The notes under the pieces were generated by a model. The model searched no databases. It worked only from the letters and a program-made list of their open reading frames with translations, and was not told the origin of the DNA. The position numbers and the translations under genes are program-made. A stretch of 64,000 nt of DNA, from positions 10,519 through 74,518 of the forward strand of contig CACWSW010000002.1 in assembly GCA_902763655.1 (NCBI GenBank). Direction: 5' to 3'. The DNA is from an uncultured bacterium. GTDB taxonomy: Bacteria; Verrucomicrobiota; Kiritimatiellia; RFP12; UBA1067. Positions 1 through 29,660 of the stretch are shown here, piece after piece; within the stretch, counting starts at the first letter, position 1, and each line of letters begins with the position of its first letter.

Positions 1-2203
1 TCACGCGGAGCGCGGTGATCTCCATCTCGGGAAACGAATGCACGCGGTGGCGCAGAAAGTTTTCCTGCTCTTCCGCCAGCGTCCGCCACGTGCCGCCCGC
101 AAGACCTTCCACCCGGTACACCTTCGCCAGGCACTTCGGCATCCGCACCTTCACCCGCATCGGCGTCAGGTCGGTGTCGAAGGTCAGACGCACCTCGTGC
201 GCCTTCACGGATTTCGGGAAATCAAGGCGTACCGCCTGCGGCAGCGGCTGCGACCTGTCGGACACCCATCCGTGCACGCAATCGCCGACCTGGCGCGCGA
301 TGCCGTCTATGATGCCGTCCGGCATGCCGCTCGTCGCCGACACGCGTGCGCTGCGCGCATGATCGCGCGTGTCGCCGTTCGCAAGCTCGGGAATGTAGTG
401 GTCGTCCTTGAGGAGTAGCTGCTGCAGCTCGCCGATGCGTGTCCACCCCAGTTCGCGTGGCGTGAGGCCGTGCCGGATGCAGAGCGCCGCCGCCGTGCCT
501 GCGGCCTGTCCTGCCGCCATCTGCGTGCCCTGCACGCGCATCGAGCCGAGCGCGATGTGCGTCATGCTCTGGCAGCGCGATCCGATGAGCAGGTTCGGGA
601 CGTCCGCCGAGTAGAGCGAGCGGAACGGCACCGAGTAGATCGGCACGCCCATGTGCGGATGCCACCAGCCGTCGCCATGAGGGTTATCCATGCCAAGGGG
701 ATCGTGCGTGTCGAGCGACCAGCCGCCGTACGTCACGCGGTCAGGGAACATCCGCGCGTCCCGGCAGTCGTTCGCCGTCAGCACGTAGTCGCCCACGATG
801 CGCATGCCCTCGCGCCGTCCGTTGAAGATGGAAGGCGGGACGAACGCGTAGTGCTGCACCTTGTGCGCCGGACCATCCGGCCATTCGTTGCGCACGTATC
901 CCCAGTAGCCGAAGCAGATGCGGATCAAGTGGTCGCGCGCGGCCTCGGGATCCTCCAGGTCGTCGATGCGCCCAGGCGCCTCCAGCCACCACGGGCGACC
1001 CAGTCCCGGCACCTTCCGGTCGAAACCCTTCGGCATCACGCGCGCCCAGACGGGCGTCTCGTACGGTTGCTCGCGGTCCGTGCGTCGGCTCAGTCCCGTC
1101 GTGAGCGTGCCGCTCATCGTGAGCCGGTCCGCGACCTTCGGCGCGATCCACTCCTCTCCGAACTCGCTGCCCGCCTCCCGGCCGTACATCGTGCGCGCCT
1201 CGGCGAAGTGCCCGATCCAGCCGTCGCCGGTGGAATCGACGAAAATCCGCCCGCGCCAGCGCGTCCAGCGCCCGGTCAGCGTGTTGCGCGAGAGGACGGC
1301 GGCGATCCGCGCGCCGTCCTTCTCCACGCGCATCACGCGCTCGTTGCGGAAGAGCGAAAGGCTCGGGCTCTTGCGCGCCATCTCCTCGAACGCGCCGGTG
1401 TAGCCCTTGCCACGATAGACCTTCGTGAGGCGCAGTTCCTCCACCACGCCCGTCTCGCGCGCGTTCTTCTTGCCTAGCGACGCGCCGTCGAACCCGATGC
1501 CGCACTCGTCGCTCGCGTTGCCGCCGGGGATCGGGCGGTCGAACACGAGAGCCACGCGCGCGCCGTTCCGCGCCGCGCCGAGCGACGCGCCCATGCCGCC
1601 AGGCCCGGCGCCGACGACGACCACGTCGTACGACCCGCCGTCGGCGACCGTCGCCGGCTCGCCCTTGAACCGCCGCCGCTCCGCGCCGTCGGGGTCGTCG
1701 TCAGACGGCACGAACGAGAGGTCTTCCGCGAGCAGCACCGCGTCGCAGCGCGCATACGCGCCGGAGAGGTCGCGCAGGGCCAGCTCCGTCTCGCCGGCCT
1801 TCAGCTTGAAGTCGCCGACGTTTTCCCAGCCCCAGCCTTTCTTCGACTCTCCCAGCACCTTGCCGCGCCGGCCGTCCACCTCCAGCGCAAAACGTCCGGG
1901 CGAGAATTCGGGCAGCCAGTCCTTCGTGCGCGCCCACACGCGCCACGTGCCTGCGCGCGGAATCAATATGGTCGTGCGTGCGACTTTCGGTCTGGGCGTG
2001 TTCGCGCCCGGACAGATCAGGTACGCGCTTCCCATCTTGTGGGTGAACTGAGTGTCCACCTCCCAGTCCCCGCGCTCGGCGAAGTCCTCGGCTTCTATCC
2101 AGATGAATCCTGGCACGTGTTCCGCGCCCGATGCGGCCAAGGCCGCCATCCCGCAGATGGCGCACACGACGGGAAACGCACGGACATTCTGGAAAGCGCT
2201 CAT
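1..2203 (-). CDS. Secreted FAD-dependent oxidoreductase family protein (partial; C-terminus runs off the left edge)
   Basis: Absent from the ORF track because it has no in-window stop. My own translation from ATG 2203-2201 stays open to position 2. An AAGGAG RBS lies on the complement of 2212-2217. N-terminus MSAFQNVRAFPVVCAICGMAALAASGAEH looks like a signal peptide. YDVVVVGAGPGGMGASLGAARNGARVALV is a GxGxxG Rossmann dinucleotide fold. Further motifs: IFVDSTGDGW and GSRCQSMTHIALGSMRVQGTQMAAGQAAG. Frame spot-checked at 1660-1681 (ERRRFKG). Confidence 0.75.
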   Translation of the reverse strand, partial: MSAFQNVRAFPVVCAICGMAALAASGAEHVPGFIWIEAEDFAERGDWEVDTQFTHKMGSAYLICPGANTPRPKVARTTILIPRAGTWRVWARTKDWLPEFSPGRFALEVDGRRGKVLGESKKGWGWENVGDFKLKAGETELALRDLSGAYARCDAVLLAEDLSFVPSDDDPDGAERRRFKGEPATVADGGSYDVVVVGAGPGGMGASLGAARNGARVALVFDRPIPGGNASDECGIGFDGASLGKKNARETGVVEELRLTKVYRGKGYTGAFEEMARKSPSLSLFRNERVMRVEKDGARIAAVLSRNTLTGRWTRWRGRIFVDSTGDGWIGHFAEARTMYGREAGSEFGEEWIAPKVADRLTMSGTLTTGLSRRTDREQPYETPVWARVMPKGFDRKVPGLGRPWWLEAPGRIDDLEDPEAARDHLIRICFGYWGYVRNEWPDGPAHKVQHYAFVPPSIFNGRREGMRIVGDYVLTANDCRDARMFPDRVTYGGWSLDTHDPLGMDNPHGDGWWHPHMGVPIYSVPFRSLYSADVPNLLIGSRCQSMTHIALGSMRVQGTQMAAGQAAGTAAALCIRHGLTPRELGWTRIGELQQLLLKDDHYIPELANGDTRDHARSARVSATSGMPDGIIDGIARQVGDCVHGWVSDRSQPLPQAVRLDFPKSVKAHEVRLTFDTDLTPMRVKVRMPKCLAKVYRVEGLAGGTWRTLAEEQENFLRHRVHSFPEMEITALRV

Positions 2204-2278: not shown

Positions 2279-2643
2279 AAGTCGGCGGGCCGCCCGATAG
2301 GGGTGCCGCTGGAAGTTGGCGGACCGCCCGATAGGAATTTCATTTTCCAGTGGGCGGGCCGGGACCACCGGGACCACCGAGACCACCGGGAAATGGCAAG
2401 CCAGGCTTGCGCTCTTTGCAATTGGCCCGTAGCCTATTCCTGGCGCGAAGCACCTCCCAGGCGCAATCCCGGCGGTCCCGGTGGTCTCGGCGGTCCCGGT
2501 AGCAGGCACTTGCCCCGCGAAGCGGCCTAGCGCCTACCCGGCCATCGGCCTGTGCCTTGTCACGCGAAGCGGCCTAGCGCCTACCCGGCCATCGGCCCGC
2601 TGCCGCAAAATCCCTTCACCTTTCACCTTTCACCATTCACCCT
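2279..2643. repeat. Mosaic of short direct and inverted repeat families in a divergent intergenic region
   Basis: Direct repeat AAGT(C/T)GGCGG(G/A)CCGCCCGATAGG at 2279-2301 and 2313-2335. GGACCACCG-unit array at 2359-2390, with its inverted partner CCCGGCGGTCCCGGTGGTCTCGGCGGTCCCGG at 2468-2499. 35-nt direct repeat CGCGAAGCGGCCTAGCGCCTACCCGGCCATCGGCC at 2516-2550 and 2563-2597. CACCTTTCA-unit array at 2613-2643. Confidence 0.85.
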
Positions 2644-2663
2644 CCATGTGCTATACTTGGCGC

Positions 2664-4374: not shown

Positions 4375-4790
4375 TGAGCCGACGCAGCAGACGCGGCGCG
4401 CGCACGGGCGTCGGGAAGGCGTCGATCGACATGAACTCGCTGATCGACCTCACCTTCCTCCTGCTCGTCACGTTCATCCTAACCATCCCCGCGCTGGAGC
4501 AGGGCATCACGATAATGCTTCCGCGCGCGAAGACCGACCTTCTGCCGAACAAGAACAACAAGGCGAACACCATCACGCTCGACGTCAACCACAAGCTTTT
4601 CCTAAACGACGTGCCCACCACGCTGGACGAGCTTGAGAACACGCTGAAGGAGAAGGTGGCGCTGGACCCGGACGTGCCCGTGCTGGTGCGGGGCGACGAG
4701 CGGCTGGAATACGGAGAGGTGATGGACGTGGTGAAGGTCGTCTACAAGTGCCAGGTCCGCAAGATGGCGTTGGTGACGGTGGAGAAGTAG
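4374..4790 (+). CDS. exbD: ExbD/TolR biopolymer transport protein
   Basis: TGATG overlap with the exbB stop. Contains the N-terminal TM segment LIDLTFLLLVTFILT and the periplasmic domain VLVRGDERLEYGEVMDVVKVV. Confidence 0.85.
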   Translation: MSRRSRRGARTGVGKASIDMNSLIDLTFLLLVTFILTIPALEQGITIMLPRAKTDLLPNKNNKANTITLDVNHKLFLNDVPTTLDELENTLKEKVALDPDVPVLVRGDERLEYGEVMDVVKVVYKCQVRKMALVTVEK

Positions 4791-4796
4791 GATCCC

Positions 4797-5645
4797 ATGC
4801 AACTGGGAACGTACATGGAGAGGCAGAGGGGAACCGAGAGCGTGCTGAACGCGCGCGCTCTGGGCTATGCCTTGGCCGTGCACCTGGCGCTATTCGTCTT
4901 CTTCTGGGGGATGGCCAAGTTCGCGTTCCGCAGGCCGGACGTGGTGATCCCCATCGACATGACGATCGTCCCCCCGTGGGCGGAGCAGACGGACGATCCC
5001 GATCCCGACCCCAACCCTCCGCCGAAGCCCGAGGAGGCGAAACCGGAGCCGAAGCCGCAAGTGAAGGAGCCGGAGCCGAAGATCGAGCAGCCCAAGGTTG
5101 ATGCCGTCGAGCAGGTGAAGGAGAAGCCCAAGCCCAAAGAGAAGCCAAACCTGCGCGAAAAGGCGAAGCTAATCAAGACGCCGCCGAAGCCGAAGGAGAA
5201 GCTCGACCTGCGCAAGAACGCGAAGAAGATTGACGCGCCGCCCATGAAGAAGACAGGCAAGGCCACCGCCCACGACAAGCCGCTTTCGCCGGAGGAATTC
5301 ATGCGGAAGATGAACGAGGGCTACCGCATCGGCGCGCGTAACCAGCTCGCCACTAGCGAGGAGCAACGGTGTGTGAGCCTCATAGCGCAGGCGATCAAGC
5401 GAGAGTGGAACAAGGAATCGTTCAAGTGGTATCCCGGCCTCAAGCCGCTCCAAGTATCACTCAAGCTAGGGCCAGGCGGCAGCGTGCGCGGCTTCACCAT
5501 CCTCGTCGGCAGCGGCGATGCGGACGTGGATCGCACCGCGCGCAGCGCGCTCAACCGTCTCAAGTCCATCCCAGGCCTTTCCGCCACCTTCCTCGAAAAC
5601 TTCCCCGAGATCGCGCTACTCATGGAGCCGACCCAGGGCGAGTAA
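4797..5645 (+). CDS. tonB: TonB-like energy transducer (TM anchor, Pro/Lys/Glu-rich spacer, C-terminal domain)
   Basis: TM segment LGYALAVHLALFVFFWG. Spacer PDPDPNPPPKPEEAKPEPKPQVKEPEPK. Compact C-terminal domain. Sits third after exbB and exbD. A TolA-like role is not excluded. Confidence 0.65.
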   Translation: MQLGTYMERQRGTESVLNARALGYALAVHLALFVFFWGMAKFAFRRPDVVIPIDMTIVPPWAEQTDDPDPDPNPPPKPEEAKPEPKPQVKEPEPKIEQPKVDAVEQVKEKPKPKEKPNLREKAKLIKTPPKPKEKLDLRKNAKKIDAPPMKKTGKATAHDKPLSPEEFMRKMNEGYRIGARNQLATSEEQRCVSLIAQAIKREWNKESFKWYPGLKPLQVSLKLGPGGSVRGFTILVGSGDADVDRTARSALNRLKSIPGLSATFLENFPEIALLMEPTQGE

Positions 5646-5676
5646 CTGATTCCATAAAAGCCAAGGAGATAGCGAC

Positions 5677-7059
5677 ATGCTGCTGACAAGACGATCCTTC
5701 ATCGAAACATCCGCCGGGACCGCCGCCGCGTTAGCGGTGCCGGGATGCGCCACCGCCGCGCTGGACGCAGCGGCGCCCGTGGAGATCCTTACGAAGACGC
5801 ACTTTGCAAAACCTGGCTCTAAGCTCCGCATGGGCTTCATCGGCTCCGGCGGGCGTGGCGGCGCGAACCTCAACGAGTTCTTCAACCTAGGCGAGGAGAT
5901 CGTGGCGCTGTGCGACGTGGACGCCACCCGCCTAGACGCCGCCGCGAAGAAGGTCGCCTCTCGTTGTCCGAAGGCCCGCCGCTACCGCGACTGGCGCGAC
6001 ATGCTCGACAAGGAGAAGGACCTCGACGCCGTGGTCGTCTCCACGCCCGACCACATGCACGCCGCCGCCGCCATCGCCGCCATGAAGCGCGGCCTGCACG
6101 TCTACGTGGAGAAGCCGCTCGTGCGCACCTTCTTCGAGGCCGAGCGGTTCCGCAAGGTTGCGGAGGCTTGCGGCGTAGTCACGCAGATGGGCAACAACGG
6201 CAACGGCACCGACGGACAGCGCCGCAACATCGAGATACTCCAGAGCGGCGTCCTCGGCGAAGTCTCGGAGATCCACGTCACCACCGACCGTCCCATCTGG
6301 CCGCAGGCGATCAACCGCCCCGAGGGGAGCGACACCATTCCCGACACCTTCGACTGGAACCTCTGGCTAGGCGTCGCTCCGAAACGCCCCTTCAAGAAGA
6401 ACGTCTACCATGCCTTCAAGTGGCGCGGCTGGTTCGACTTCGGCACCGGCGCGATGGGAGACATCGCGTGCCACGCCATGAGTTTCTTCTGGCGCGGGCT
6501 CGCGCTCGAGCGCGTCGTCTCCGTGGAGACGATCCAGTCGACGCCGAAGTTCTCCGAGACGTACCCCGCCGCGACGACCGTCAAGCTCGTCGTCACCTCG
6601 GCCCGCCAGAAGAAGCCGGTCGAGATATACTGGTACGACGGCAAGACCGGTCCCGCGGAGGCGACGGCCCGACGCCTGACAGACGGCGTGATGTCTTCCC
6701 TCGGCGGCACCACGGTCGTCGGCGCGAACGGCATCCTGCGCGGCGGCACGCTGATGATGAAGGGCGAGCGCAAGTTCATCCGCTGGCAGGACCATCCCGC
6801 CACGCGCGAGCTGCCCGTCACGCTCCCGCGAGTGAAGAACCACCACTGGGAATTCGCCGAGGCGGTGCGCGGCGGCGCGAAGCCGTTCTCGCACATCGAC
6901 CATTCCGTGCCGCTCACGGAGGCAGTCCTCCTCGGCTGCATCTCGCAGCGCGTGGCCGGCAAGCTCGACTGGGACGCCGCCAAGGGCCGCTTCTCAAACA
7001 GCGACGAGGCCAACGCCCTTCTCGCGCCATATGTCCGTCCCGGCTGGGAAATCGGCTGA
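5677..7059 (+). CDS. Tat-signal Gfo/Idh/MocA family oxidoreductase
   Basis: Twin-arginine leader MLLTRRSFIETSAGTAAALAVPG. Rossmann segment LRMGFIGSGGRGGANL. STPDHMHAAAAIAAMKRGLHVYVEKPL is the family signature region. AAGGAGA RBS. Confidence 0.85.
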   Translation: MLLTRRSFIETSAGTAAALAVPGCATAALDAAAPVEILTKTHFAKPGSKLRMGFIGSGGRGGANLNEFFNLGEEIVALCDVDATRLDAAAKKVASRCPKARRYRDWRDMLDKEKDLDAVVVSTPDHMHAAAAIAAMKRGLHVYVEKPLVRTFFEAERFRKVAEACGVVTQMGNNGNGTDGQRRNIEILQSGVLGEVSEIHVTTDRPIWPQAINRPEGSDTIPDTFDWNLWLGVAPKRPFKKNVYHAFKWRGWFDFGTGAMGDIACHAMSFFWRGLALERVVSVETIQSTPKFSETYPAATTVKLVVTSARQKKPVEIYWYDGKTGPAEATARRLTDGVMSSLGGTTVVGANGILRGGTLMMKGERKFIRWQDHPATRELPVTLPRVKNHHWEFAEAVRGGAKPFSHIDHSVPLTEAVLLGCISQRVAGKLDWDAAKGRFSNSDEANALLAPYVRPGWEIG

Positions 7060-7083: not shown

Positions 7084-9755
7084 ATGGGAATGCGCAGGTC
7101 TGTGCTCACTATCGGCTTTCTTGCTTTTTGCTGTGCAACCGGTCTGATGGCCGAGACGCCCGACAAGTTCATCCGCTACGTGGAGGCCACGGGCCAGCAG
7201 GCGGTTGACACGGGCATCGTCGGCCGGTACGGCATGAGGGCCGAGATGCAGGTGGAGTGGATGGCCGTGGGCGGCGACACCGCGTTCCTCGACGCGCGCG
7301 GCGACGACGGGACGTCCGAAAACAACACGCGCATCATGTTCTGTCACAACGGCGGGGAGGCGCCGATTGGCGTGGCGTACGGGGCGTTCCAATACGGCAA
7401 GTATGGCGGCGCCACCTGCAAATGGGAGAAAGACCGGATCTACAGCATGACGACCGATCTCACGGTGACGAACGCCACAGAGGTTTTGTGCCAGTCGTGG
7501 GTGGACGGCATCCAGTTGTGGAACGAGGTGAAGTCTGGACTGATCGACACGGGCTACAATCTCTACATCTTCGCCTGCAACCTGCACGGCGATACGGTGT
7601 ACCATTCCAAGTCCCGTTGCTACTGGTTGAAGATCTGGCAGGACGACGCGAACGGGGTCCGCCATCTGGTACGCGACTTCCGACCCTGCCTGAAGGACGG
7701 GCGCGTGGGCCTGTACGACGCCGTCTCCGAGACGATCTTCTACTCCTTCACGGGGACGGATCTCGCCTACGACATGAACGACGACGTGCCGGACGACATG
7801 GCGACACCTACGTGGATACCGGCGTGATCGGGCGTTCCGGAACAAGTTGCGAGGCGGACATGGAATGGCTGGCGCTCGGCGGCGACTATGCGTTCCTGGA
7901 CGTGCGCGGCACATACGGCGCAGACGATCGTATCATGCTGATCCACAGCCATCTATCGAAGATGAGCTTGGGGTACGGAGTCTTTCAGGGCAACACGACG
8001 GCTCATCAATATTCGCTCGGAACGCGGTATCTTGTCGCAAGTGACCTGCGCGCTGGCAGCCAGACGCTCGTCGTGAACGGCGAAACGGTCTACTCAGGGA
8101 CTTCGTCCGCCACCTTCGACACGGGGCGCAACCTCTATCTCTTCGCCAATAACCGCGCCGGATCCGTGGAAAACTATTGCAGCGCGCGGCTCTACGGATT
8201 GAAGATCTGGCAGGACGGCACGCTCGTGCGCGACCTCCGGCCCTGCCGCAAGCGCGGCGTGCCGGCGCTCTACGACGACGTGGAGAAAGTCATCCTCTAT
8301 CCGAAGCAGAAGAAACTGACATGTCCGAACCTTTGGACGGCGGAGGGGCGGCCCGACTACTTCGTCGAGTACCTTCGAGGGAACGGCACCGTCTGCCTCG
8401 ACACGGGCGTGCGGGGACGCGCCGGTACGCGTGCGACGGGCGAGTATGCATGGACGCAGATGCGTACCGCCTGGCAAGAGCAGAGCGTGTACCTGGAGAA
8501 CATCTACTCGCGTCAGGAGCGTTGCTATCTCGGATCGGTGGGTGGCGATAACCGTTTCTACATGGTGCACGAGAACAGCACGGCCACCTGGTCGGGCTAC
8601 GGCTTGCAGCGCATCTATCCGGAACGCATCACGACCAACCTCGTGGAGGAGGTTGTCACGAACCTCGACGAGACAGTCACGACCAACATGGTGGAGGTCG
8701 TGTCCACGAACAGGATCCTGTTGGCGGCCGGGCATAAGTATGCGTTCGACGTCTCGTACGATGCCGGTTCGCAGACGATCGATCTGGACGGCGAGCGGAT
8801 CATGGAAAAGGACAGTGCGGCAGCCGTCGATTCAGGTTGCAATCTCTATCTCTTCGCCGTGAACGGCAACGGGAGTCCTGTCTACGAATCGCCGGCGCGC
8901 TGCTACTCGCTGAAGCTGTGGCAGGACGGGACGCTCGTGCGCGACTTCAAGCCGTGCGTGAAGGACGGGAAGGGGATGCTGTGGGACGAGGTCTCTCAGA
9001 CGCTCTTCCGCCCGATCCCCGACATCCCGGCGACGGACGCCAACACGGGCGAATTCCGCGGTTTCGGCGAGGTGGAGCCGGTTGCGTTCCTGGAATACGT
9101 GGAGACGGACAGGAAGCAGTACGTCGACACGGAGATCGTCGGACGCTCCGGCACGACTGCCGAGTTCGAGATGGCGTGGACGGCGGCCGGTGCCGACGAG
9201 TCCTTCCTCGGCTTGCGCGACACGTCCAAGGCGGACAGCCTCAGCCGTTTCTACTTCTGGCAGAAGAACAGCACGGCAACGCTCGCCTCGGCCATCTACT
9301 ACGGCTACGGCTACACGAAATATCTCATAGCAGACGCGCCGGATCAAGTTGGCAGCAACCAGAGCGCGAACTTGATACCCGTGACAGCCGGGCAGGTCTA
9401 CCACGTGCGCTCGTCGCTGAACACAGACTCGCAGACGATCGAGGTGGACGGCACGACGCTCCTGAACCGCACGGAACCGGCCACGATCAGCTCGGACCTC
9501 CATCTCTACCTGTTCGCCCTCAACTACGGCGGAACCGCGCAGTATTTCGGGCGCACGCGCTTCTACTGGCTGAAGATCTGGCAGGACGGGCAGCTTGTGC
9601 GCAACTTCCGTCCCATCCTGCTCGAAAGCGGCCTTGCCGCGCTGTGGGATTCGGTGAGCAAGCAGGTGTTCCTGCCGAGCGCGCCGTTCAGCGCGATGGG
9701 GCCGGTCAGCGGCGATTTCGAGATCAAGAGCGGCACGACGATCATCATTCGGTAG
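7084..9755 (+). pseudogene. Secreted four-module repeat protein (cassette 1), split by a frameshift at ~7796
   Basis: Track ORFs 7084..7827 and 7257..9755 (real from ~7797) together parallel the intact paralog 13946..16723. Relative to that paralog, 22 nt (GTTCGTGGACTACGTCGAGGCC, encoding FVDYVEA) are missing after 7796. Signal peptide MGMRRSVLTIGFLAFCCATGLMA. The downstream part could restart at GTG 7824, which overlaps stop 7825-7827. Confidence 0.6.
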
Positions 9756-18597: not shown

Positions 18598-21500
18598 ATG
18601 AAAGGTCATCTTATTGGAATCGTCTGTGGACTGATCGCCGCAACAGCGTTTTCGGCCACGCCGGACGCCGCCGCCGTGCGACGGGCGAAGGAGCAGCTGG
18701 CGCTATTCAAGCCCGATGCCGCGCGCCGCGCGATGGCCGACCTGAAGTCCAACCCGAAGTACAACTGGGCGAAGCACAACGCCGCCGTGGAGGCCTTGAT
18801 CGCGAAACGCGAATTCGTGCAGACCGCCCTCGCCGGCAAGGACGTCGCGAAGCAGGCGGAGGCCGTCGCGCTCGTAGAGGCGTACCGCGCCGCGATGCTC
18901 GCGAACCCGGTCCTCGACTTCGACAAGATCCTCTGCGTCCACCGAAAGATCGGCAACCCGCGCGGCGCGTTCGGCGGGCGTGGCAGCGGCATGACCGGCC
19001 TCAACGCCGAGAACCACATGGTCGCGCCGCGCACCGGTTTCCCGAACGAGATCGTCGTCCTCTCCAACCTGCGCGGCACGCCCACGTACACGGAGATATA
19101 CAAGCCCGCCGACGGCACGTCCGTGGTGCGCGACCTCGACCTCGACTTCGATGCCTCCCGCATCCTCTTCACGCAGTACAAGGGCACGAACAACCTCTTC
19201 GGCGTGTACGAGATTTTGGTGAAAGATGAAAGTCGAAAGGTGAAAGGTGAGGAGGGCGCGGCAGACGCCAACCCACACCTTTCACCTTTCACCCTTCACC
19301 CTTCACCGCCGACGTTGGTCTCGCCGGAAGACGGCCACTACGACATCCAGTGGTGGGACGGCTGCTACCTGCCCAACAAGGACCAGGTGGTGATGCTCGG
19401 CACGGCCGCCTTCCAGTTCCTGCCGTGCGAGGACGGCAACATGCCGATGGCCGTCCTCTACCGCATCGACCGCAAGACCGGCGAGGTGCGCCAGCTCACC
19501 TACGAGCAGGACAGCGACTACACGCCGAACATCACGCACGACGGGCGCATTCTCTACACGCGCTGGGAATACTCCGACCAGCCCCACTACTGGAGCCGCG
19601 TGCTCATGACGATGAACCCCGACGGCATCGGCCAGCTCTCCGTGTGGGGCTCGAACTCCTTCGTGCCCACGTTCTTCTACTGCGCCCGTTCCGTCCCGGG
19701 CGACCCGCACCTCCTCACCATGATCGGCGGCGGCCACCACGACCGCGCCGAGGTCGGCCGCTTCTTCCAGGTCGACCCCACCCTCGCGCGCGCCTATCCC
19801 TTCAAGTACGACCCGCCAGACCGCGAGTGGGGTCCGCCCAAGCACACGCTCCGCATCCCCACGAAGGTGTTCCCGAAGGAGAAGACCGGCCTCGTGCACG
19901 AGTTCCCCGGCTTCGGCAAGGACGTGGAGGGCGACATGGCCGACCCCTACACGATGAACCAGTTCGCGCGCGGCAAGTACTACTTCTCCCACCCGTGGCC
20001 GCTCGACGCCAAGTACAACCTCGCCACCGTCAAGGCCGCGCCCGACGCGCTCATGGGCCTCTACCTCGTGGACGTGTTCGACAACGTCACGCGCATCGCC
20101 GAGGCCGACGACGGCCTGCTCGTGGAGGCGATCCCGTTCGTGCCGCGCAAGCGCCCGCCGATCATCCCCGACCGCTCGGTGAAGGGCGCCACAACATGCT
20201 CCGTGCACGTTGCCGACATCTACAACGGCCCCGGCCTCGCTGGCATCCCGCGTGGGACGGTCAAGAAGCTCCGCCTCTTCTCCTACCACTACAACTACCA
20301 CAACGTGGGCGGACACTCCTCCACCGGCTGGATCGGCTACAGGAAGTCGCCCTACAACGAGCGAGTGGAGTCCGGCTGGGACATCAAGCGCATCCTCGGC
20401 ACCGTGGACATCGAGGCCGACGGCTCCTGCTGCTTCGAGATGCCCGCGAACACGCCGATATCACTCCAGCCGCTCGACGAGAAGGGACAGGCCGTCCAGC
20501 TGATGCGCTCGTGGGTTGTGGGCATGCCCGGCGAGCGCGTCTCGTGCACCGGCTGCCACGAGGACAACCGCACTTCCATCCACACCAAGCGCACGATCGC
20601 CGACGAGAAGTACTTCAAGGGCCAGATGCAGAAGATCAAGCCGACCGACACCGACGGCCTCCGTCCGTGGGGCTTCGCCGCCGAGATGTGGCCCGTCGTG
20701 CGCAAGAACTGCTTCTCCTGCCACGGCGACCCTGCCAAGGCCCCGCTCGCCAAGGCCGACCAGGGCGGCGCGAAGGAAGTGAAGGTGGACATCTTCACGA
20801 AGTACGAGCTCTCCGGCAAGCGCCTCGTGATGGACACGCCCGAGAACGCCTACCGGATGCTGCACCCGTACATCCGCCGCCCCGGTCCAGAGAGCGAGGA
20901 GACGCTTCTCCCGCAGATGGACTACCACGCCTCGACAAGCCCGCTCGTGCAGATGCTCCGCAAGGGTCACAAGGGAATAAAGCTCGCCGACGCCGAGTGG
21001 ATGAAGATCTACGAGTGGATCGACCTCAACGCGCCCTTCATCGGCAAGTGGAATCCGCCGGAGATCAAGGGCGACAAGTGGGTGAACGCATGCGTGCCCA
21101 GCCAGGTGGAGCGCCGCCTCGAGCTGCAGAAGCGCTACGCCAACGTCCCCGACAACCCGGAGGCGGAGTACGACAGGTATTGGGCGATCGTGAGCAACAG
21201 ACTGGAGAAGTTAAGTGGCCCTTCGGGCCTAAGTGCGCCTTCGGCGCTAAGTGCTGCTTCGCAGCTAAATGAACTTAGTCGCGAAGCGACACATAGGGGC
21301 GCAGCCCCACTTAAGGCCGAAGGCCCACTTAATCACTTAACCCTCCAGGGCTGGCCGATGAACGTGCTGCAATCCGCCGACGCGCAACTCGGCCGCATCG
21401 ACGAGATCACGCCCGTCAACACGAAGACGCTGATCCTCGGCGCGGGCCAGTCGCTCACCTTCCGCCGCATCCCCGCCGGCGCGTTCGTGATGGGCAGCTC

Positions 21501-22263
21501 CACTGGCTATCCCGACGAACGTCCGCAGGCCGTCGTGAAGATCGCGAAGCCGTTCTGGATCTCGGAGATGGAGATCCGCAACGACCAGTACAACGTCTTC
21601 GACCCCGAGCACGACTCGCGCTATCAGGACGAGTTCGGCAAGGACCACGTCTTCCCCGGCCACATCGGCAACCATCGCCGCCAGCCCGTCGTGCGCGTCT
21701 CGTGGCACGAGGCCAAGGCGTTCTGCGCGTGGCTCTCGAAGACGTGCGGCGTGAAGGCGGATCTCCCCACCGAGGCGCAGTGGGAGTGGGCCGCGAGGTC
21801 GGGCACAGACACGCCCTTCCCGTGGGGCGGGCTCGACGACGACTTCTCGAAGTTCGCCAACTTTGCCGACCGCGACACGCGTTTCCAGGTGGTCGGCTTC
21901 GACGGCGGCGGCAACATCCGCAACCGCAAGCCGTTCAAGATCGAGCAGAACTATCCGCTCCACGACGAGCGCTTCCTCGACGACTGGTTCAACATCAACT
22001 TTGTTGGCCGCGCGAACGCCAACCGCTGGGGCCTCTACGACATGCACGGCAACGCGAGCGAATGGACGCGAAGCGACTATGCGCCGTATCCGTACGTGGA
22101 CGGCGACGGACGCAACGCGAACGATCCGAAGAAGCCGAAGGTGGCGCGCGGCGGCTCGTACGCCTCGCGTCCGCGCGACGGCACCAGCTCGTACCGCCTC
22201 GTCTACGAGCCGTGGCAGAAGGTGTTCGACGTCGGTTTCCGCGTCATCCTCGAGGCAGAGTAA
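18598..22263 (+). CDS. HzsA-like beta-propeller / di-heme c-type cytochrome protein fused to a C-terminal FGE-sulfatase (SUMF1-like) domain
   Basis: Signal peptide. Propeller-type segments (YTPNITHDGRILYTRWEYSD). CxxCH motifs CTGCH at 20545-20559 and CFSCH at 20710-20724. The C-terminal ~290 aa carry RIPAGAFVMGS, RRQPVVRVSWHEAKAFCAWLS, LPTEAQWEWAARSG, NRWGLYDMHGNASEWT, ARGGSY and GFRVI, the FGE-sulfatase signature set. Confidence 0.75.
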   Translation: MKGHLIGIVCGLIAATAFSATPDAAAVRRAKEQLALFKPDAARRAMADLKSNPKYNWAKHNAAVEALIAKREFVQTALAGKDVAKQAEAVALVEAYRAAMLANPVLDFDKILCVHRKIGNPRGAFGGRGSGMTGLNAENHMVAPRTGFPNEIVVLSNLRGTPTYTEIYKPADGTSVVRDLDLDFDASRILFTQYKGTNNLFGVYEILVKDESRKVKGEEGAADANPHLSPFTLHPSPPTLVSPEDGHYDIQWWDGCYLPNKDQVVMLGTAAFQFLPCEDGNMPMAVLYRIDRKTGEVRQLTYEQDSDYTPNITHDGRILYTRWEYSDQPHYWSRVLMTMNPDGIGQLSVWGSNSFVPTFFYCARSVPGDPHLLTMIGGGHHDRAEVGRFFQVDPTLARAYPFKYDPPDREWGPPKHTLRIPTKVFPKEKTGLVHEFPGFGKDVEGDMADPYTMNQFARGKYYFSHPWPLDAKYNLATVKAAPDALMGLYLVDVFDNVTRIAEADDGLLVEAIPFVPRKRPPIIPDRSVKGATTCSVHVADIYNGPGLAGIPRGTVKKLRLFSYHYNYHNVGGHSSTGWIGYRKSPYNERVESGWDIKRILGTVDIEADGSCCFEMPANTPISLQPLDEKGQAVQLMRSWVVGMPGERVSCTGCHEDNRTSIHTKRTIADEKYFKGQMQKIKPTDTDGLRPWGFAAEMWPVVRKNCFSCHGDPAKAPLAKADQGGAKEVKVDIFTKYELSGKRLVMDTPENAYRMLHPYIRRPGPESEETLLPQMDYHASTSPLVQMLRKGHKGIKLADAEWMKIYEWIDLNAPFIGKWNPPEIKGDKWVNACVPSQVERRLELQKRYANVPDNPEAEYDRYWAIVSNRLEKLSGPSGLSAPSALSAASQLNELSREATHRGAAPLKAEGPLNHLTLQGWPMNVLQSADAQLGRIDEITPVNTKTLILGAGQSLTFRRIPAGAFVMGSSTGYPDERPQAVVKIAKPFWISEMEIRNDQYNVFDPEHDSRYQDEFGKDHVFPGHIGNHRRQPVVRVSWHEAKAFCAWLSKTCGVKADLPTEAQWEWAARSGTDTPFPWGGLDDDFSKFANFADRDTRFQVVGFDGGGNIRNRKPFKIEQNYPLHDERFLDDWFNINFVGRANANRWGLYDMHGNASEWTRSDYAPYPYVDGDGRNANDPKKPKVARGGSYASRPRDGTSSYRLVYEPWQKVFDVGFRVILEAE
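19217..19308. repeat. Intragenic imperfect inverted repeat of GTGAAAG / CTTTCAC units
   Basis: GGTGAAAGATGAAAGTCGAAAGGTGAAAGGTGAGG at 19217-19251 faces CACACCTTTCACCTTTCACCCTTCACCCTTCACCG at 19274-19308. It is translated in frame as ...KDESRKVKGEEGAADANPHLSPFTLHPSPP.... Confidence 0.8.
21211..21340. repeat. Intragenic composite palindrome built from TAAGTG-spaced mini-hairpins with TTCG / GAAG loops
   Basis: Left half: TTAAGTG-GCCCTTCGGGCC-TAAGTG-CGCCTTCGGCGC-TAAGTG-CTGCTTCGCAGC-TAAATG. Right half: CTTAG-TCGCGAAGCGAC-ACATAG-GGGCGCAGCCCC-ACTTAAG-GCCGAAGGCC-CACTTAA. It is translated in frame (LSGPSGLSAPSALSAASQLNELSREATHRGAAPLKAEGPLNHL). Confidence 0.8.
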
Positions 22264-28335: not shown

Positions 28336-29625
28336 CTATTTTGCCCGGCGCTCGCCGGTGTGCCAGGTTATCAGGTGCCAGAAGAGGGAATGGCGCGTGC
28401 GACCGTCCTTGCGGTCCCAGCACTCCCAGAACGTCCAGAACGGCGACCAGTTGCGGTCAAAGCCTTCCGAGTGGCGGATTGGGTTCAACTCCAGGACTCG
28501 CTGGCGCGAGCGGCCCTTCACCGTCGTCGAGCTCCAGAACGGCCAGACGCGCGTGTAGGACGCGACCTCCGTGCGCGTTCCGTCCTTAGCCTTCGAGAAT
28601 CGCCGCTCGCTTGTCCAGAACGGGAACACCGTGAAACGCGTCTCCAGCGTCCTGTCGGACTCCAGCTCCGAATCCTCCACAAGGTACCACCCGTAGCGGC
28701 GCGTACGCTCCTCCACCTTCTCCTTGCGTCCCTTGTCGGCGTATGGATAGCCGTCGATCGCCTCGTAGAACGGCCAGACGGAAATGCGGTCGCGCACTGT
28801 GGAATGCAGGACATCCACCAGCGGCCACGGCAGCCGCCAGCGAGTGGCCTTGTCGGTCCGCGCGTAGGAGAAGAACGGCGGCAGCACGAGCGTCTGCGAT
28901 TCCCGTGCGCGGCGGACCTGACCGTAGAACGGCAAGAACATCCATGACGAGCCTGCACCGGAAGTGTCGCGGTCCTCCAGGTAGCTTGCCCACGTGAAAA
29001 GCGGCCACAGCGCGTAGCCGTGCTCGGACTCGCGCTGCGTTGCGGTCCCGTAGAACGGCCACACTCCCACGCCCGCGCGCGGTTCGTCGCGCCAGGTGAC
29101 GAACGGCCACAGGATCGCGCGGCTCCTCACGTCCTTCACGGAGTACGACTGCCATATCGGCCACAGGATGAAGTCCCAGTCATCCATGAAGAAGAAGTGC
29201 GGGTGATGTCCGTAGATCGGGAAGAATCCCCAATAGCCGTCATCCTTCCTGTCGCAGCCGCTGAACCAGAGCGGAAACACGTTGAAGCTCCACGTGGGAT
29301 CGTCATCGCGAGAGTCGCCATATGCAATGGCAGCGCGCCACCAGTCGGCCTTGTTGTGGTAGTGATAGGTTCCAAGCGGCCACAGAACATCGCACGCGAA
29401 GGTGTCGGAGGCTGGCGCGTCGACCTGGGAATAGAACGGACGGATCGCCCAGAACGACGACTGGCCTGGGGCGGCGCGCCGATACTCGAACAACGGCCCG
29501 AAGTTCCAGTGCGATCTCGTGCTCCCTCCGATACGCGCCTTCTCCGCCTCTACATCGGCGGCAAGGGACTGCAAGGACAAAAGGGCAAAGGATAAAAGAC
29601 AAACGGCTCTAGCGACGGACTTCAT
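28336..29625 (-). CDS. Secreted Trp/Pro/Phe-rich repeat protein of unknown function
   Basis: Signal peptide MKSVARAVCLLSFALLSLQSLAA. At least 10 irregular repeats centre on WP[FL][FYV] (LWPLGTY, FPLWF, LWPIW, LWPFVTW, VWPFYG, LWPLFTW, WPLVD, VWPFYE, FPFWT, VWPFWS). I do not recognise the family. Confidence 0.6.
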   Translation of the reverse strand: MKSVARAVCLLSFALLSLQSLAADVEAEKARIGGSTRSHWNFGPLFEYRRAAPGQSSFWAIRPFYSQVDAPASDTFACDVLWPLGTYHYHNKADWWRAAIAYGDSRDDDPTWSFNVFPLWFSGCDRKDDGYWGFFPIYGHHPHFFFMDDWDFILWPIWQSYSVKDVRSRAILWPFVTWRDEPRAGVGVWPFYGTATQRESEHGYALWPLFTWASYLEDRDTSGAGSSWMFLPFYGQVRRARESQTLVLPPFFSYARTDKATRWRLPWPLVDVLHSTVRDRISVWPFYEAIDGYPYADKGRKEKVEERTRRYGWYLVEDSELESDRTLETRFTVFPFWTSERRFSKAKDGTRTEVASYTRVWPFWSSTTVKGRSRQRVLELNPIRHSEGFDRNWSPFWTFWECWDRKDGRTRHSLFWHLITWHTGERRAK

Positions 29626-29660
29626 TCACCATTCACCTTTCACCATTCACCTTTCACTTC
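29621..29660. repeat. CACCTTTCA / CACCATTCA unit array (same family as 2613-2643)
   Basis: The 20-mer TTCACCTTTCACCATTCACC at 29632-29651 is identical to 2622-2641. The array lies between two minus-strand genes. Confidence 0.85.

What the first reader, a model, noticed from the sequence alone, without database searches (positions are those of the whole stretch)
21211..21340. 130-nt in-frame palindrome made of TAAGTG-spaced mini-hairpins with TTCG/GAAG loops
The left half has three units of the form TAAGTG + 4-nt stem + TTCG + stem (GCCCTTCGGGCC, CGCCTTCGGCGC, CTGCTTCGCAGC). The right half has the complementary type (TCGCGAAGCGAC, GGGCGCAGCCCC, GCCGAAGGCC + CACTTAA). The RNA could therefore fold in two ways: as one long stem, or as a string of UUCG-type tetraloop hairpins. 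UUCG tetraloops are established as exceptionally stable. The element lies between the cytochrome region and the FGE domain. It is translated as a Ser/Ala/Leu/Pro-rich linker. It is the most structured sequence I see in the window.
Basis: partly seen in the sequence, partly recalled or inferred. Interest (0 to 1): 0.6.

Follow-up and report, generated by a model that had tools for sequence, protein, structure and literature searches.

The report
In-frame palindromic repeat element in gene
The 132-base hairpin is real, but it is the last copy in this genome of a small repeat-DNA family of rumen Kiritimatiellae that sits in frame inside genes and appears to be read through as an extra floppy protein loop, a phenomenon already known from Rickettsia and Opitutus, here in a new tandem-mini-hairpin form.

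Summary
Window 21211-21342 is a 132-nt imperfect palindrome that folds far better than shuffles (z = -7.3). It lies in frame (residues 872-915) in a 1221-aa HZS-alpha/di-haem/FGE-sulfatase protein.

It is not a gene-specific RNA device. The same element occurs about 37 times in four sister species (rumen Kiritimatiellae MAGs UBA3624, RUG572, RGIG2765, RGIG2632) and in rumen metagenomes:
- The build is always [TAAGT + 13-nt perfect palindrome]n, a core CTTAGTCGCGAAGCGACAC, then mirrored units.
- All copies but one are in frame in unrelated enzymes: HZS/FGE paralogs (two sites), glycyl-radical enzymes, FGGY kinases, a PLP decarboxylase and an SDR.
- Both orientations occur, and the number of 18-nt (6-codon) units varies.
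- Most orthologs of the window's gene have a 15-aa Pro/Ala linker at this place instead.

The window's copy is the only one in its genome and differs from the family's usual form at four bases.

- The stems are 5 bp with UUC triloops, not cUUCGg tetraloops.
- There is no terminator and no Rfam match.

Best reading: a tolerated selfish or neutral in-frame palindromic repeat, analogous to RPEs and intragenic REPs. It lacks the GTAG/CGTC tag, and no RAYT link was found. How it spreads is unknown. It is a new variant of a known kind, of moderate interest.

The parts
21211..21342 (+). Whole element: a 132-nt composite palindrome, in frame as residues 872-915 of the host protein. It occupies exactly the place where most orthologs have a 45-nt Pro/Ala linker.
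   Evidence: the linker is delimited by the conserved flanks ...NRLEK and LQGWP.... Fold z = -7.3.
21212..21229 (+). Left-arm unit 1: TAAGT + GGCCC-TTC-GGGCC, read as (L)SGPSG.
21230..21247 (+). Left-arm unit 2: TAAGT + GCGCC-TTC-GGCGC, read as LSAPSA.
21248..21265 (+). Left-arm unit 3: TAAGT + GCTGC-TTC-GCAGC, read as LSAASQ.
21266..21278 (+). Centre of symmetry, TAAATGAACTTAG. It departs from the family's usual TAAGT(G/A)AACTTAG.
   Evidence: Metagenome variants carry the usual G at 21269 and A at 21271.
21279..21289 (+). Asymmetric core hairpin TCGCGAAGCGA, part of the family signature CTTAGTCGCGAAGCGACAC. It gives the element an orientation.
21290..21313 (+). Right-arm unit 1: CACATA-GGGGC-GCA-GCCCC-ACTTA. 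The usual family form is CACTTAG-GGGCGAAGCCCC.
   Evidence: Positions 21293 and 21302 carry the usual bases in other samples.
21314..21342 (+). Right-arm unit 2, AGGCC-GAA-GGCCC-ACTTA, plus the terminal tail ATCACTTAACC (the ...CACTTAA end of the family).
18598..22263 (+). Host gene: a 1221-aa protein with an N-terminal hydrophobic leader, an HZS_alpha middle domain, two CxxCH motifs and a C-terminal FGE-sulfatase domain. The reading frame is intact through the element.

Best explanation
The palindrome is one copy of a lineage-specific, non-autonomous palindromic repeat element of a rumen Kiritimatiellae genus. It is the only copy left in this genome and differs slightly from the family's usual form.

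**Build.** The element has a run of 18-nt units (a TAAGT tag plus a 13-nt GC-rich perfect palindrome), a short asymmetric core (CTTAGTCGCGAAGCGACAC) and the mirror-image run.

**Why it survives inside genes.**
- All unit lengths are multiples of three.
- On each strand only one frame lacks stops.
- It lodges where extra flexible peptide is tolerated. Here that is the inter-domain linker before the FGE domain, where it stands in place of the ancestral 15-aa Pro/Ala linker.
- It appears to be read through as a 44-aa Ser/Ala/Gly/Pro/Leu-rich loop.

**Shown.** Family membership, dispersal in unrelated genes, the in-frame state, both orientations, variable unit number, and absence from most orthologs.

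**Inferred.**
- It is translated and functionally neutral or tolerated.
- Unit number changes by slippage in 18-nt steps.
- The arms are kept mirror-symmetric, and the mini-hairpins perfect, by a DNA-level process such as hairpin-templated correction or template switching.
- New sites are colonised by a trans-acting enzyme or by recombinational filling. I put roughly 25% on a HUH/Y1 (RAYT-like) transposase that acts on the tag plus hairpin; the rest is recombination or an unknown process.
For: **A repeat family**
- TAAGTG-N12-TAAGTG occurs 21-42 times in four genomes of the genus, 3 times here (all at this locus), and 0-2 times in the other 28. The reversed-pattern control gives 0-1.
- A scan of 185,579 species genomes for the core 19-mer finds only those four MAGs: UBA3624, RUG572, RGIG2765 and RGIG2632, from rumen and omasum.
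- Nineteen further true loci occur in metagenome contigs.

**In frame in unrelated hosts**
- 36 of about 37 catalogued copies lie in a stop-free frame of long reading frames (235-1549 aa; the shortest are cut by contig ends).
- Hosts are HZS_alpha/FGE paralogs at two sites, PFL-like glycyl-radical enzymes, FGGY kinases (inside FGGY_C), an Orn/DAP/Arg decarboxylase and an SDR.
- The decarboxylase copies are in the reverse orientation.
- One copy is intergenic.

**The DNA is conserved, not the protein context**
- Element identity is 0.92-0.98 between unrelated host genes, and 0.94 between sites A and B of one gene. The alignment baseline for unrelated flanks is 0.70-0.77.

**Presence versus absence**
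- Eighteen orthologs carry a 45-51-nt Pro/Ala linker at this exact place.
- At the second site, element-less orthologs carry a conserved 17-aa loop.

**Variable unit number at orthologous sites**
- For example, 2 units against at least 7 in the SDR, and 114-204 nt at site B.

**Hairpins stay perfect although the stems differ**
- 255 of 289 units are perfect 5-bp palindromes, with 10 different stems.

**The window's copy is real and departs from the usual form**
- It is present in independent metagenomes. Other samples carry the family's usual bases at 21269, 21271, 21293 and 21302.
Against: - No transposase, target-site duplication or autonomous parent was found.
- Y1_Tnp genes exist in all eight genomes tested, including genomes without the element. 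None has TAAGT units within 1.5 kb.
- The element replaces native loop sequence instead of simply adding to it. Classical cut-and-paste insertion does not predict this.
- Almost all copies are intragenic (one intergenic copy in about 37). That is more extreme than for RPEs or REPs and could mean that selection favours the encoded peptide or the RNA.
- Translation is not shown. Metatranscriptome contigs run from upstream coding sequence only 26 nt into the element.
- All genomes are fragmented MAGs, and many contigs end inside these repeats. Copy counts are therefore lower bounds, and intergenic copies may be under-assembled.
Confidence: 0.82

Rival explanations
1. It is a cis-acting mRNA structure selected for this gene. 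The long stem or hairpin string would pause ribosomes between the cytochrome-like module and the FGE domain, or act as an RNase III or termination site that uncouples the FGE domain.
For: - The predicted structure is very stable: z = -7.3 and -68 kcal/mol for the element alone.
- It sits exactly at a domain boundary.
- Mini-hairpins stay perfectly paired although the stems differ.
Against: - The same element lies in unrelated genes, inside domains (FGGY_C), in both orientations, and once between genes.
- Eighteen orthologs work with an unstructured Pro/Ala linker at this place.
- Unit number varies freely.
- There is no T-tract terminator and no Rfam family.
- Perfect palindromes can also be maintained by DNA-level quasi-palindrome correction.
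Confidence: 0.06
2. It is a protein-level innovation: a selected flexible or modifiable Ser/Ala/Gly/Pro-rich linker cassette (LSxxSx hexapeptides) that is shuffled between secreted and cytosolic enzymes. The DNA palindrome would be a by-product.
For: - The element is always in frame, and unit lengths are 18 or 33 nt, all multiples of three.
- It replaces native linkers and loops.
- Nearly all copies are intragenic.
Against: - The two arms encode unrelated peptides (LSAASQLSGPSG... against REATLRGEAPLNNL...), and the reverse orientation encodes a third (LSVASRLSSEGTLRPEGP).
- What is conserved is DNA symmetry and DNA identity (0.92-0.98) across unrelated hosts.
- An intergenic copy exists.
- In other genomes, other unit families with quite different peptides (VKGE..., VVRDS...) occupy the same sites.
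Confidence: 0.08
3. It is a metagenome-assembly artefact, such as a fold-back chimera.
For: The genome is a 465-contig MAG. Contigs of sister MAGs often end inside such repeats.
Against: - Unitigs from several independent bovine-gut metagenome studies tile the element exactly or nearly so. One 329-nt contig spans both flanks without gaps.
- The arms are only 78% complementary.
- The reading frame is kept.
- Related copies occur in five MAGs and in JGI metagenomes.
Confidence: 0.01

Closest known systems
Rickettsia palindromic elements (RPE-1 to RPE-8; Ogata et al. 2000, from my own knowledge; cited in Di Nocera et al. 2013, PMC3733652)
   Same: Both are palindromic repeats of about 100-150 bp, dispersed in the genome and inserted in frame in unrelated protein-coding genes. 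Both add a peptide segment at tolerated surface or linker positions. Neither has a known transposase.
   Different: - The phylum differs and no sequence relation is known.
- The arms here are tandem arrays of 18-nt tag-plus-mini-hairpin units, with variable unit number.
- Almost all copies are intragenic. For RPE-1 roughly half are (from my own knowledge).
- The element replaces native loop sequence.
Intragenic GTAG- and CGTC-tagged REPs, most numerous in Opitutus terrae and R. conorii (Di Nocera et al. 2013, PMC3733652)
   Same: Both have a short GC-rich hairpin with a conserved short tag at one foot. Units occur singly, as inverted dimers or grouped. They are found inside known genes, where they encode 20-30 extra residues. 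The host belongs to the PVC superphylum, as O. terrae does.
   Different: - The tag is TAAGT(G), not GTAG or CGTC.
- The stem is only 5 bp and varies between units.
- The period is a strict 18 nt.
- No REPtron or RAYT association was found.
REPIN / BIME elements of enterobacteria and Pseudomonas (from my own knowledge)
   Same: In both, two inverted sets of hairpin units form a larger fold-back that behaves as the replicating unit. Families are specific to a lineage.
   Different: REPINs are extragenic, have one REP per arm and are tied to a RAYT gene. Here the arms hold one or more units (up to six seen on the left arm), the copies are intragenic, and no RAYT link is seen.
[quoted passage not shown] 2010, PMC2996958)
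   Same: Both are intragenic tandem repeats whose coding DNA has dyad symmetry. Both have variable copy number and signs of intragenomic shuffling.
   Different: PARCELs are defined by a 25-residue amphipathic protein motif that makes up most of the ORF, in proteins of unknown function. Here a 6-residue period forms a short insert in otherwise ordinary enzymes.
Other in-frame unit-repeat hairpins of Kiritimatiellae noted earlier in this scan (for example e1-2856837, e1-2856845, e1-3526570)
   Same: They share the architecture (a run of short units, a loop, the mirror run), the host clade and the in-frame intragenic habit. They even occupy the same sites in orthologs.
   Different: The unit sequences differ (GTGAAAG, GTGGTTC, GTTAAAGG and others, against TAAGT plus hairpin). 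The TAAGT family is the one whose units each contain a hairpin of their own.

Membership tests
RPE-like in-frame palindromic repeats (a functional class) | Palindromic element of about 100-150 bp that can fold as a long hairpin | tested here: met
   132 nt; arms of 58 nt are 78% complementary; z = -7.3.
RPE-like in-frame palindromic repeats (a functional class) | Multiple dispersed copies in a genome | tested here: met
   Not met in the window's own genome, which has 1 copy. Met in four sister species, with roughly 6-11 loci each.
RPE-like in-frame palindromic repeats (a functional class) | Copies lie in frame inside unrelated protein-coding genes that stay open | tested here: met
RPE-like in-frame palindromic repeats (a functional class) | The inserted segment is translated and present in the protein | not testable with these tools
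   The available evidence is an intact frame and an RNA contig that reaches 26 nt into the element. No proteomics is available.
Rickettsia RPE families proper | Sequence homology to the RPE-1..8 consensus | not tested
   No RPE consensus was on hand. The host is a Kiritimatiellae bacterium, so membership is not claimed.
GTAG/CGTC-tagged REP super-families (PMC3733652) | GTAG or CGTC tetranucleotide at one end of the hairpin | tested here: not met
   The tag is TAAGT(G)/(C)ACTTA in 289 units.
GTAG/CGTC-tagged REP super-families (PMC3733652) | Short GC-rich stem-loop repeated singly, as inverted dimers or in groups | tested here: met
   The 13-nt palindromes are 88% perfect. They occur as direct runs plus mirrored runs, and one-armed arrays also exist.
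REPtron / REPIN-RAYT system | A RAYT (Y1 HUH transposase) gene flanked by units of the same family | tested here: not met
   31 PF01797 matches in 8 genomes. The 20 loci fetched (mostly with 1.5-kb flanks) hold no TAAGT-hairpin units. The MAGs are fragmented, so this is not an exhaustive search.
MITE | Terminal inverted repeats | tested here: met
   The ends are TTAAGT...ACTTAA, and the whole element is an inverted repeat.
MITE | Target-site duplication and a clean empty site in orthologs | tested here: inconclusive
   Orthologs without the element hold 45-51 nt of native sequence that is missing from filled sites. No clean empty site could be compared, and no flanking direct repeat beyond the element's own TTAA/TAA ends was seen.
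MITE | A parent IS with the same termini | tested here: not met
   All TAAGTG clusters are shorter than 250 nt. Pairs about 2 kb apart are two complete elements in one gene. Viral contigs hold none.
PARCEL | A 25-residue amphipathic repeat motif that forms the bulk of the ORF | tested here: not met
   The period is 6 residues, and the element is a 44-aa insert in a 1221-aa multi-domain enzyme.
Known structured RNA (Rfam) or intrinsic terminator | A match to a curated covariance model, or a hairpin followed by a T-tract | tested here: not met
   No Rfam match at E <= 1. No terminator-like site.

The most novel reading that the evidence does not exclude
The TAAGT-hairpin family and its sister unit-repeat families may form a class of repeats specialised for life inside genes. 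Three features fit this idea. Unit lengths are multiples of three. In either orientation exactly one frame is stop-free. Almost all copies are intragenic. Fixed permissive loops of proteins would then be repeatedly overwritten by whichever unit family is active in a lineage, through a templated, hairpin-dependent DNA process that keeps the two arms mirror-symmetric. The same loop in orthologs holds TAAGT-hairpin, TTTAAAT-hairpin, AGTGCTT, GTGAAAG or GTGGTTC arrays. If true, this is a mechanism of concerted, genome-wide rewriting of protein loops, not ordinary transposition.
Probability: 0.15. Interest if true: 0.7.

Novelty: new variant of a known kind. Interest (0 to 1): 0.42.

Why it matters
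- **Annotation.** The most structured sequence in the window is repeat DNA written into a protein linker. It should not be read as a riboregulator.
- **Biology.** It adds a well-delimited family to the short list of selfish DNA inside protein-coding genes (RPEs, intragenic REPs of Opitutus). The family has a tag, mini-hairpin units, a core signature and a known host range.
- **Unusual traits.** The arms have a 6-codon period. The element replaces native loops. Different unit families turn over at the same sites in sister species.
- **Practical use.** These elements mark insertion-tolerant loops in enzymes. They break short-read assemblies of rumen Kiritimatiellae. They offer a natural system for asking how palindromes are maintained and spread without an obvious transposase.

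Tried and rejected
- **Own-genome search.** I searched for further copies in three ways: a regex for the tag plus a perfect 5-3-5 palindrome, blastn-short, and motif clusters. Only the window's locus turned up. A weak hit on contig C151 proved to be one copy of a sister family with TTTAAAT spacers.
- **A failed script.** This led to the corrected 5-bp/triloop description.
- **RAYT link.** PF01797 genes are present in genomes with and without the element, and none is flanked by TAAGT units.
- **Loose single-unit scan.** The scan of the sister genomes was no more frequent than its reversed control. It revealed no transposase-flanking pair.
- **Phage origin.** There were 0 hits in viral contigs.
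- **Known RNA or terminator.** Nothing was found.
- **RNA evidence.** Rumen metatranscriptome contigs cover the flanks but only 26 nt of the element, so they cannot settle read-through, pausing or cleavage.
- **Chance hits.** Three soil-metagenome matches to the 19-mer core were chance hits in unrelated sequence.
- **Structure prediction.** I did not run one. The domain boundaries and the orthologs' Pro/Ala linker already place the element in a linker.
Full report
**1. The observation**

The sequence is as described. Window 21211-21342 reads:

TTAAGT-GGCCCTTCGGGCC-TAAGT-GCGCCTTCGGCGC-TAAGT-GCTGCTTCGCAGC-TAAATGAACTTAG-TCGCGAAGCGA-CACATA-GGGGCGCAGCCCC-ACTTA-AGGCCGAAGGCCC-ACTTAATCACTTAACC.

- The TAAGTG-N4-TTCG pattern occurs four times, against 0.04 expected.
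- Three units repeat with an 18-nt period. Two 58-nt arms (21211-21268 and 21275-21332) are 78% complementary.
- As RNA, 21200-21350 folds at -79.9 kcal/mol. Dinucleotide shuffles average -48.3 +/- 4.3, so z = -7.3, and none of 200 does as well.
- For the element alone, the best fold is -68 kcal/mol, a pure long stem is -65.2, and a string of local mini-hairpins is -45.7.

One correction is needed. The true unit is TAAGT plus a 13-nt perfect palindrome with a 5-bp stem and a 3-nt loop. These are not cUUCGg tetraloops.

**2. Context**

- The element is in frame in ORF 18598-22263 (1221 aa) as residues 872-915, LSGPSGLSAPSALSAASQLNELSREATHRGAAPLKAEGPLNHLT.
- Pfam places HZS_alpha at 553-655 and FGE-sulfatase at 957-1217. 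Two CxxCH motifs lie between them. The element therefore sits in the last inter-domain linker.
- No Rfam family matches and there is no terminator-like site.
- The window is contig C2:10519-74518 of a 4.5-Mb, 465-contig, 64% G+C MAG.
- The sister MAGs that share the element are rumen or omasum Kiritimatiellae.

**3. What orthologs have at this place**

I delimited the linker by the conserved flanks ...NRLEK and LQGWP....

- Eighteen orthologs in the genus carry a 45-51-nt Pro/Ala linker, for example AVAPKPAPQPPAAPK.
- Nine genes carry TAAGT-hairpin palindromes of 114-204 nt.
- Two genes of genome G004 carry other palindromic arrays.

On a tree of the flanking protein sequence, the Pro/Ala genes fall in two clades of nine. 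The window's gene groups with its G016 ortholog (TAAGT type) and its G004 ortholog. The more distant paralog clades also carry the element.

In the G004 ortholog the site holds a 96-nt palindrome of AGTGCTT heptamers. This looks like the TAAGTG tag without its hairpins.

**4. It is a dispersed repeat family**

- TAAGTG-N12-TAAGTG occurs 33, 42, 21 and 32 times in G016, G005, G008 and G012. It occurs 3 times here, all at this locus, and 0-2 times in the other 28 genomes of the genus. The reversed control gives 0-1.
- The conserved core CTTAGTCGCGAAGCGACAC was scanned over one genome for each of 185,579 species. It is found only in those four MAGs: UBA3624, RUG572, RGIG2765 and RGIG2632.
- It occurs in 19 true metagenome loci, plus three chance hits in soil.
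- It is absent from viral contigs.

I catalogued about 37 copies. Their build is constant:

[TTAAGT-G + palindrome]n - CTAAGT(G/A)AACTTAG - TCGCGAAGCGA - [CACTTAG + GGGGCGAAGCCCC ...]m - CACTTAA

All but one lie in a stop-free frame of a long reading frame. The hosts are unrelated:
- HZS_alpha/FGE paralogs at two sites: site A (VYEI|...|LVS) and site B, which is the window's;
- PFL-like glycyl-radical enzymes;
- FGGY kinases, inside the FGGY_C domain;
- an Orn/DAP/Arg decarboxylase;
- a short-chain dehydrogenase (SDR).

The decarboxylase copies are in the opposite orientation and read LSVASRLSSEGTLRPEGP instead of LS(K/E)LSREATLRGEAPL. One copy is intergenic and supplies the TAA stop of the gene upstream.

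Element DNA is 0.92-0.98 identical between unrelated host genes, and 0.94 between sites A and B of one gene. The same aligner gives 0.70-0.77 for unrelated flanks.

Unit number differs at orthologous sites. The SDR, for example, has 2 units in G008 and at least 7 in G005. Many contigs end inside the repeats.

Of 289 units, 255 are perfect 5-bp palindromes with ten different stems, and the loops are mostly TTC.

**5. The window's copy is a lone copy that departs from the usual form**

- The genome has no other TAAGT-type copy. It has one intergenic copy of a sister TTTAAAT-spaced hairpin family (C151) and 31 clusters of GTGAAAG/CTTTCAC unit arrays.
- Independent bovine-gut metagenomes hold the locus. 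One 329-nt contig spans 21075-21403 without indels.
- Other samples carry the family's usual bases at 21269, 21271, 21293 and 21302, where the window has TAAAT, CACATA and a GCA loop.
- The element is therefore real, not an assembly artefact, and slightly diverged.

**6. How it most likely works**

Shown:
- It is a member of a dispersed family.
- Copies survive where the single stop-free frame coincides with the host frame and the site is a linker or loop.
- Unit lengths (18 and 33 nt) are multiples of three, so expansion and contraction keep the frame.

Inferred:
- The 44 residues are translated as a flexible loop with little effect on function.
- Unit number changes by slippage.
- Arm symmetry and hairpin perfection are kept by DNA-level hairpin-templated correction.

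The spreading mechanism is unknown.
- By analogy with GTAG REPs and RAYTs (PMC3733652), a tag-plus-hairpin unit suggests an HUH/Y1 enzyme acting on single-stranded DNA.
- The tag is not GTAG or CGTC, however, and none of the 20 Y1_Tnp loci examined carries TAAGT units.
- Filled sites also lack the native 45-51 nt found in element-less orthologs. That fits replacement or filler synthesis during repair at least as well as simple insertion.

**7. Rival readings**

- *Gene-specific RNA device (pause, cleavage or uncoupling).* This is contradicted by the element's occurrence in unrelated genes, inside domains, in both orientations and between genes. It is also contradicted by the plain Pro/Ala linker in most orthologs. 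RNA data are too thin to exclude it.
- *Selected peptide cassette.* This is contradicted by the different peptides of the two arms and the two orientations, and by conservation at the DNA level. The near-exclusive intragenic location keeps it alive at low odds.
- *Assembly artefact.* This is excluded.

**8. Comparison with known elements, and novelty**

The phenomenon is known. Rickettsia palindromic elements and intragenic GTAG/CGTC REPs (most numerous in Opitutus terrae) are dispersed palindromes translated inside genes. PARCELs are dyad-symmetric coding repeats. Earlier notes of this scan report several other in-frame hairpin repeat families in Kiritimatiellae. I took those notes as leads and checked the ones that touch this gene.

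The TAAGT family fails the defining tests for GTAG/CGTC REPs (the tag), for REPtrons (the RAYT link) and for PARCELs. It meets the functional definition of an RPE-like element.

New here:
- arms built from tandem tag-plus-mini-hairpin units with a 6-codon period;
- replacement of native loops;
- different unit families at the same loop in sister genomes. Site A holds TAAGT, GTGAAAG or GTGGTTC arrays. Site B holds TAAGT, TTTAAAT-hairpin or AGTGCTT arrays. The own genome's FGGY, decarboxylase, PFL and SDR sites hold other sequence, clearly short-unit repeats in the first three.

I rate it a new variant of a known kind, of moderate interest.

Noticed in passing
window 19216-19314: The same host gene holds a second in-frame fold-back repeat at site A: GTGAAAG-type units, a GC-rich loop, then CTTTCAC-type units, read as LVKDESRKVKGEEGAADANPHLSPFTLHPSPPT. 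It replaces the 17-aa loop SADFAKRTTEMPYQTPT of element-less orthologs. In G016, G005, G008 and G012 the same site holds the TAAGT-hairpin element.
   Followed up: partly
own genome: C70 about 5620-5700, C85 about 8934-9010, C7 about 8424-8465, C399 about 4660-4750: At the FGGY kinase, decarboxylase and PFL-like sites where sister species carry the TAAGT element, this genome carries other short-unit repeats (GTTAAAGG, GTGAAAG, GGGAGGGACGC). At the SDR site it carries a different insert of similar length. The same loops hold different sequence in different species.
   Followed up: partly
L013 (G004:C327) and L005 (G004:C68), site B: Genome G004 has no TAAGTG-N12-TAAGTG anywhere, yet both of its genes have palindromes at site B. 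One is made of AGTGCTT heptamers (the tag without hairpins). The other is made of hairpins spaced by TTTAAAT. This suggests in-place, arm-symmetric turnover of units.
   Followed up: partly
L065 (G005:C329), site A: A third unit family (GTGGTTC / GAACCAC arrays, 87 nt, read as VVRDSCSVVRENREPRTTNREP...) occupies site A of a paralog whose site B holds a TAAGT element.
   Followed up: no
own genome C151:3792-3893 (L016 793-894): An intergenic copy of the sister family with hairpins spaced by TTTAAAT/ATTTAAA lies just upstream of an ATG. It is the closest relative of the window's element in this genome.
   Followed up: partly
L076 3455-3575 (G012:C174): This is the only intergenic TAAGT-family copy found. 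Its first TAA serves as the stop codon of the upstream ORF.
   Followed up: yes
G005:C285, C385, C431, C170; G008:C321: Contigs of the sister MAGs end inside TAAGT arrays. The repeats break short-read assemblies, so copy numbers are lower bounds.
   Followed up: no
window 21204-21338, runs X1, X8, X10: Metagenome unitigs show variant joints: 21218>21313 skips 94 nt, 21204>21338 skips 133 nt, and one X8 contig loops back with an extra GCCTGCGGCGC unit. These may be unit-number or presence/absence polymorphism, or copies from other species.
   Followed up: no
window 2610-2650 and 29621-29660: One-armed CTTTCAC/CATTCAC unit arrays lie between genes. They belong to the same unit family as the site-A repeat in the host gene, and the genome has 31 such clusters.
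   Followed up: partly
L128, L129, L136, L139, L143, L132 (metagenome contigs): Short one-armed variants (only hairpin + CACTTA units, read as LSREATLRPRSGHLSGEAALNG) lie in frame in further unidentified ORFs. This shows that the unit can also occur in arrays without the mirror arm.
   Followed up: no
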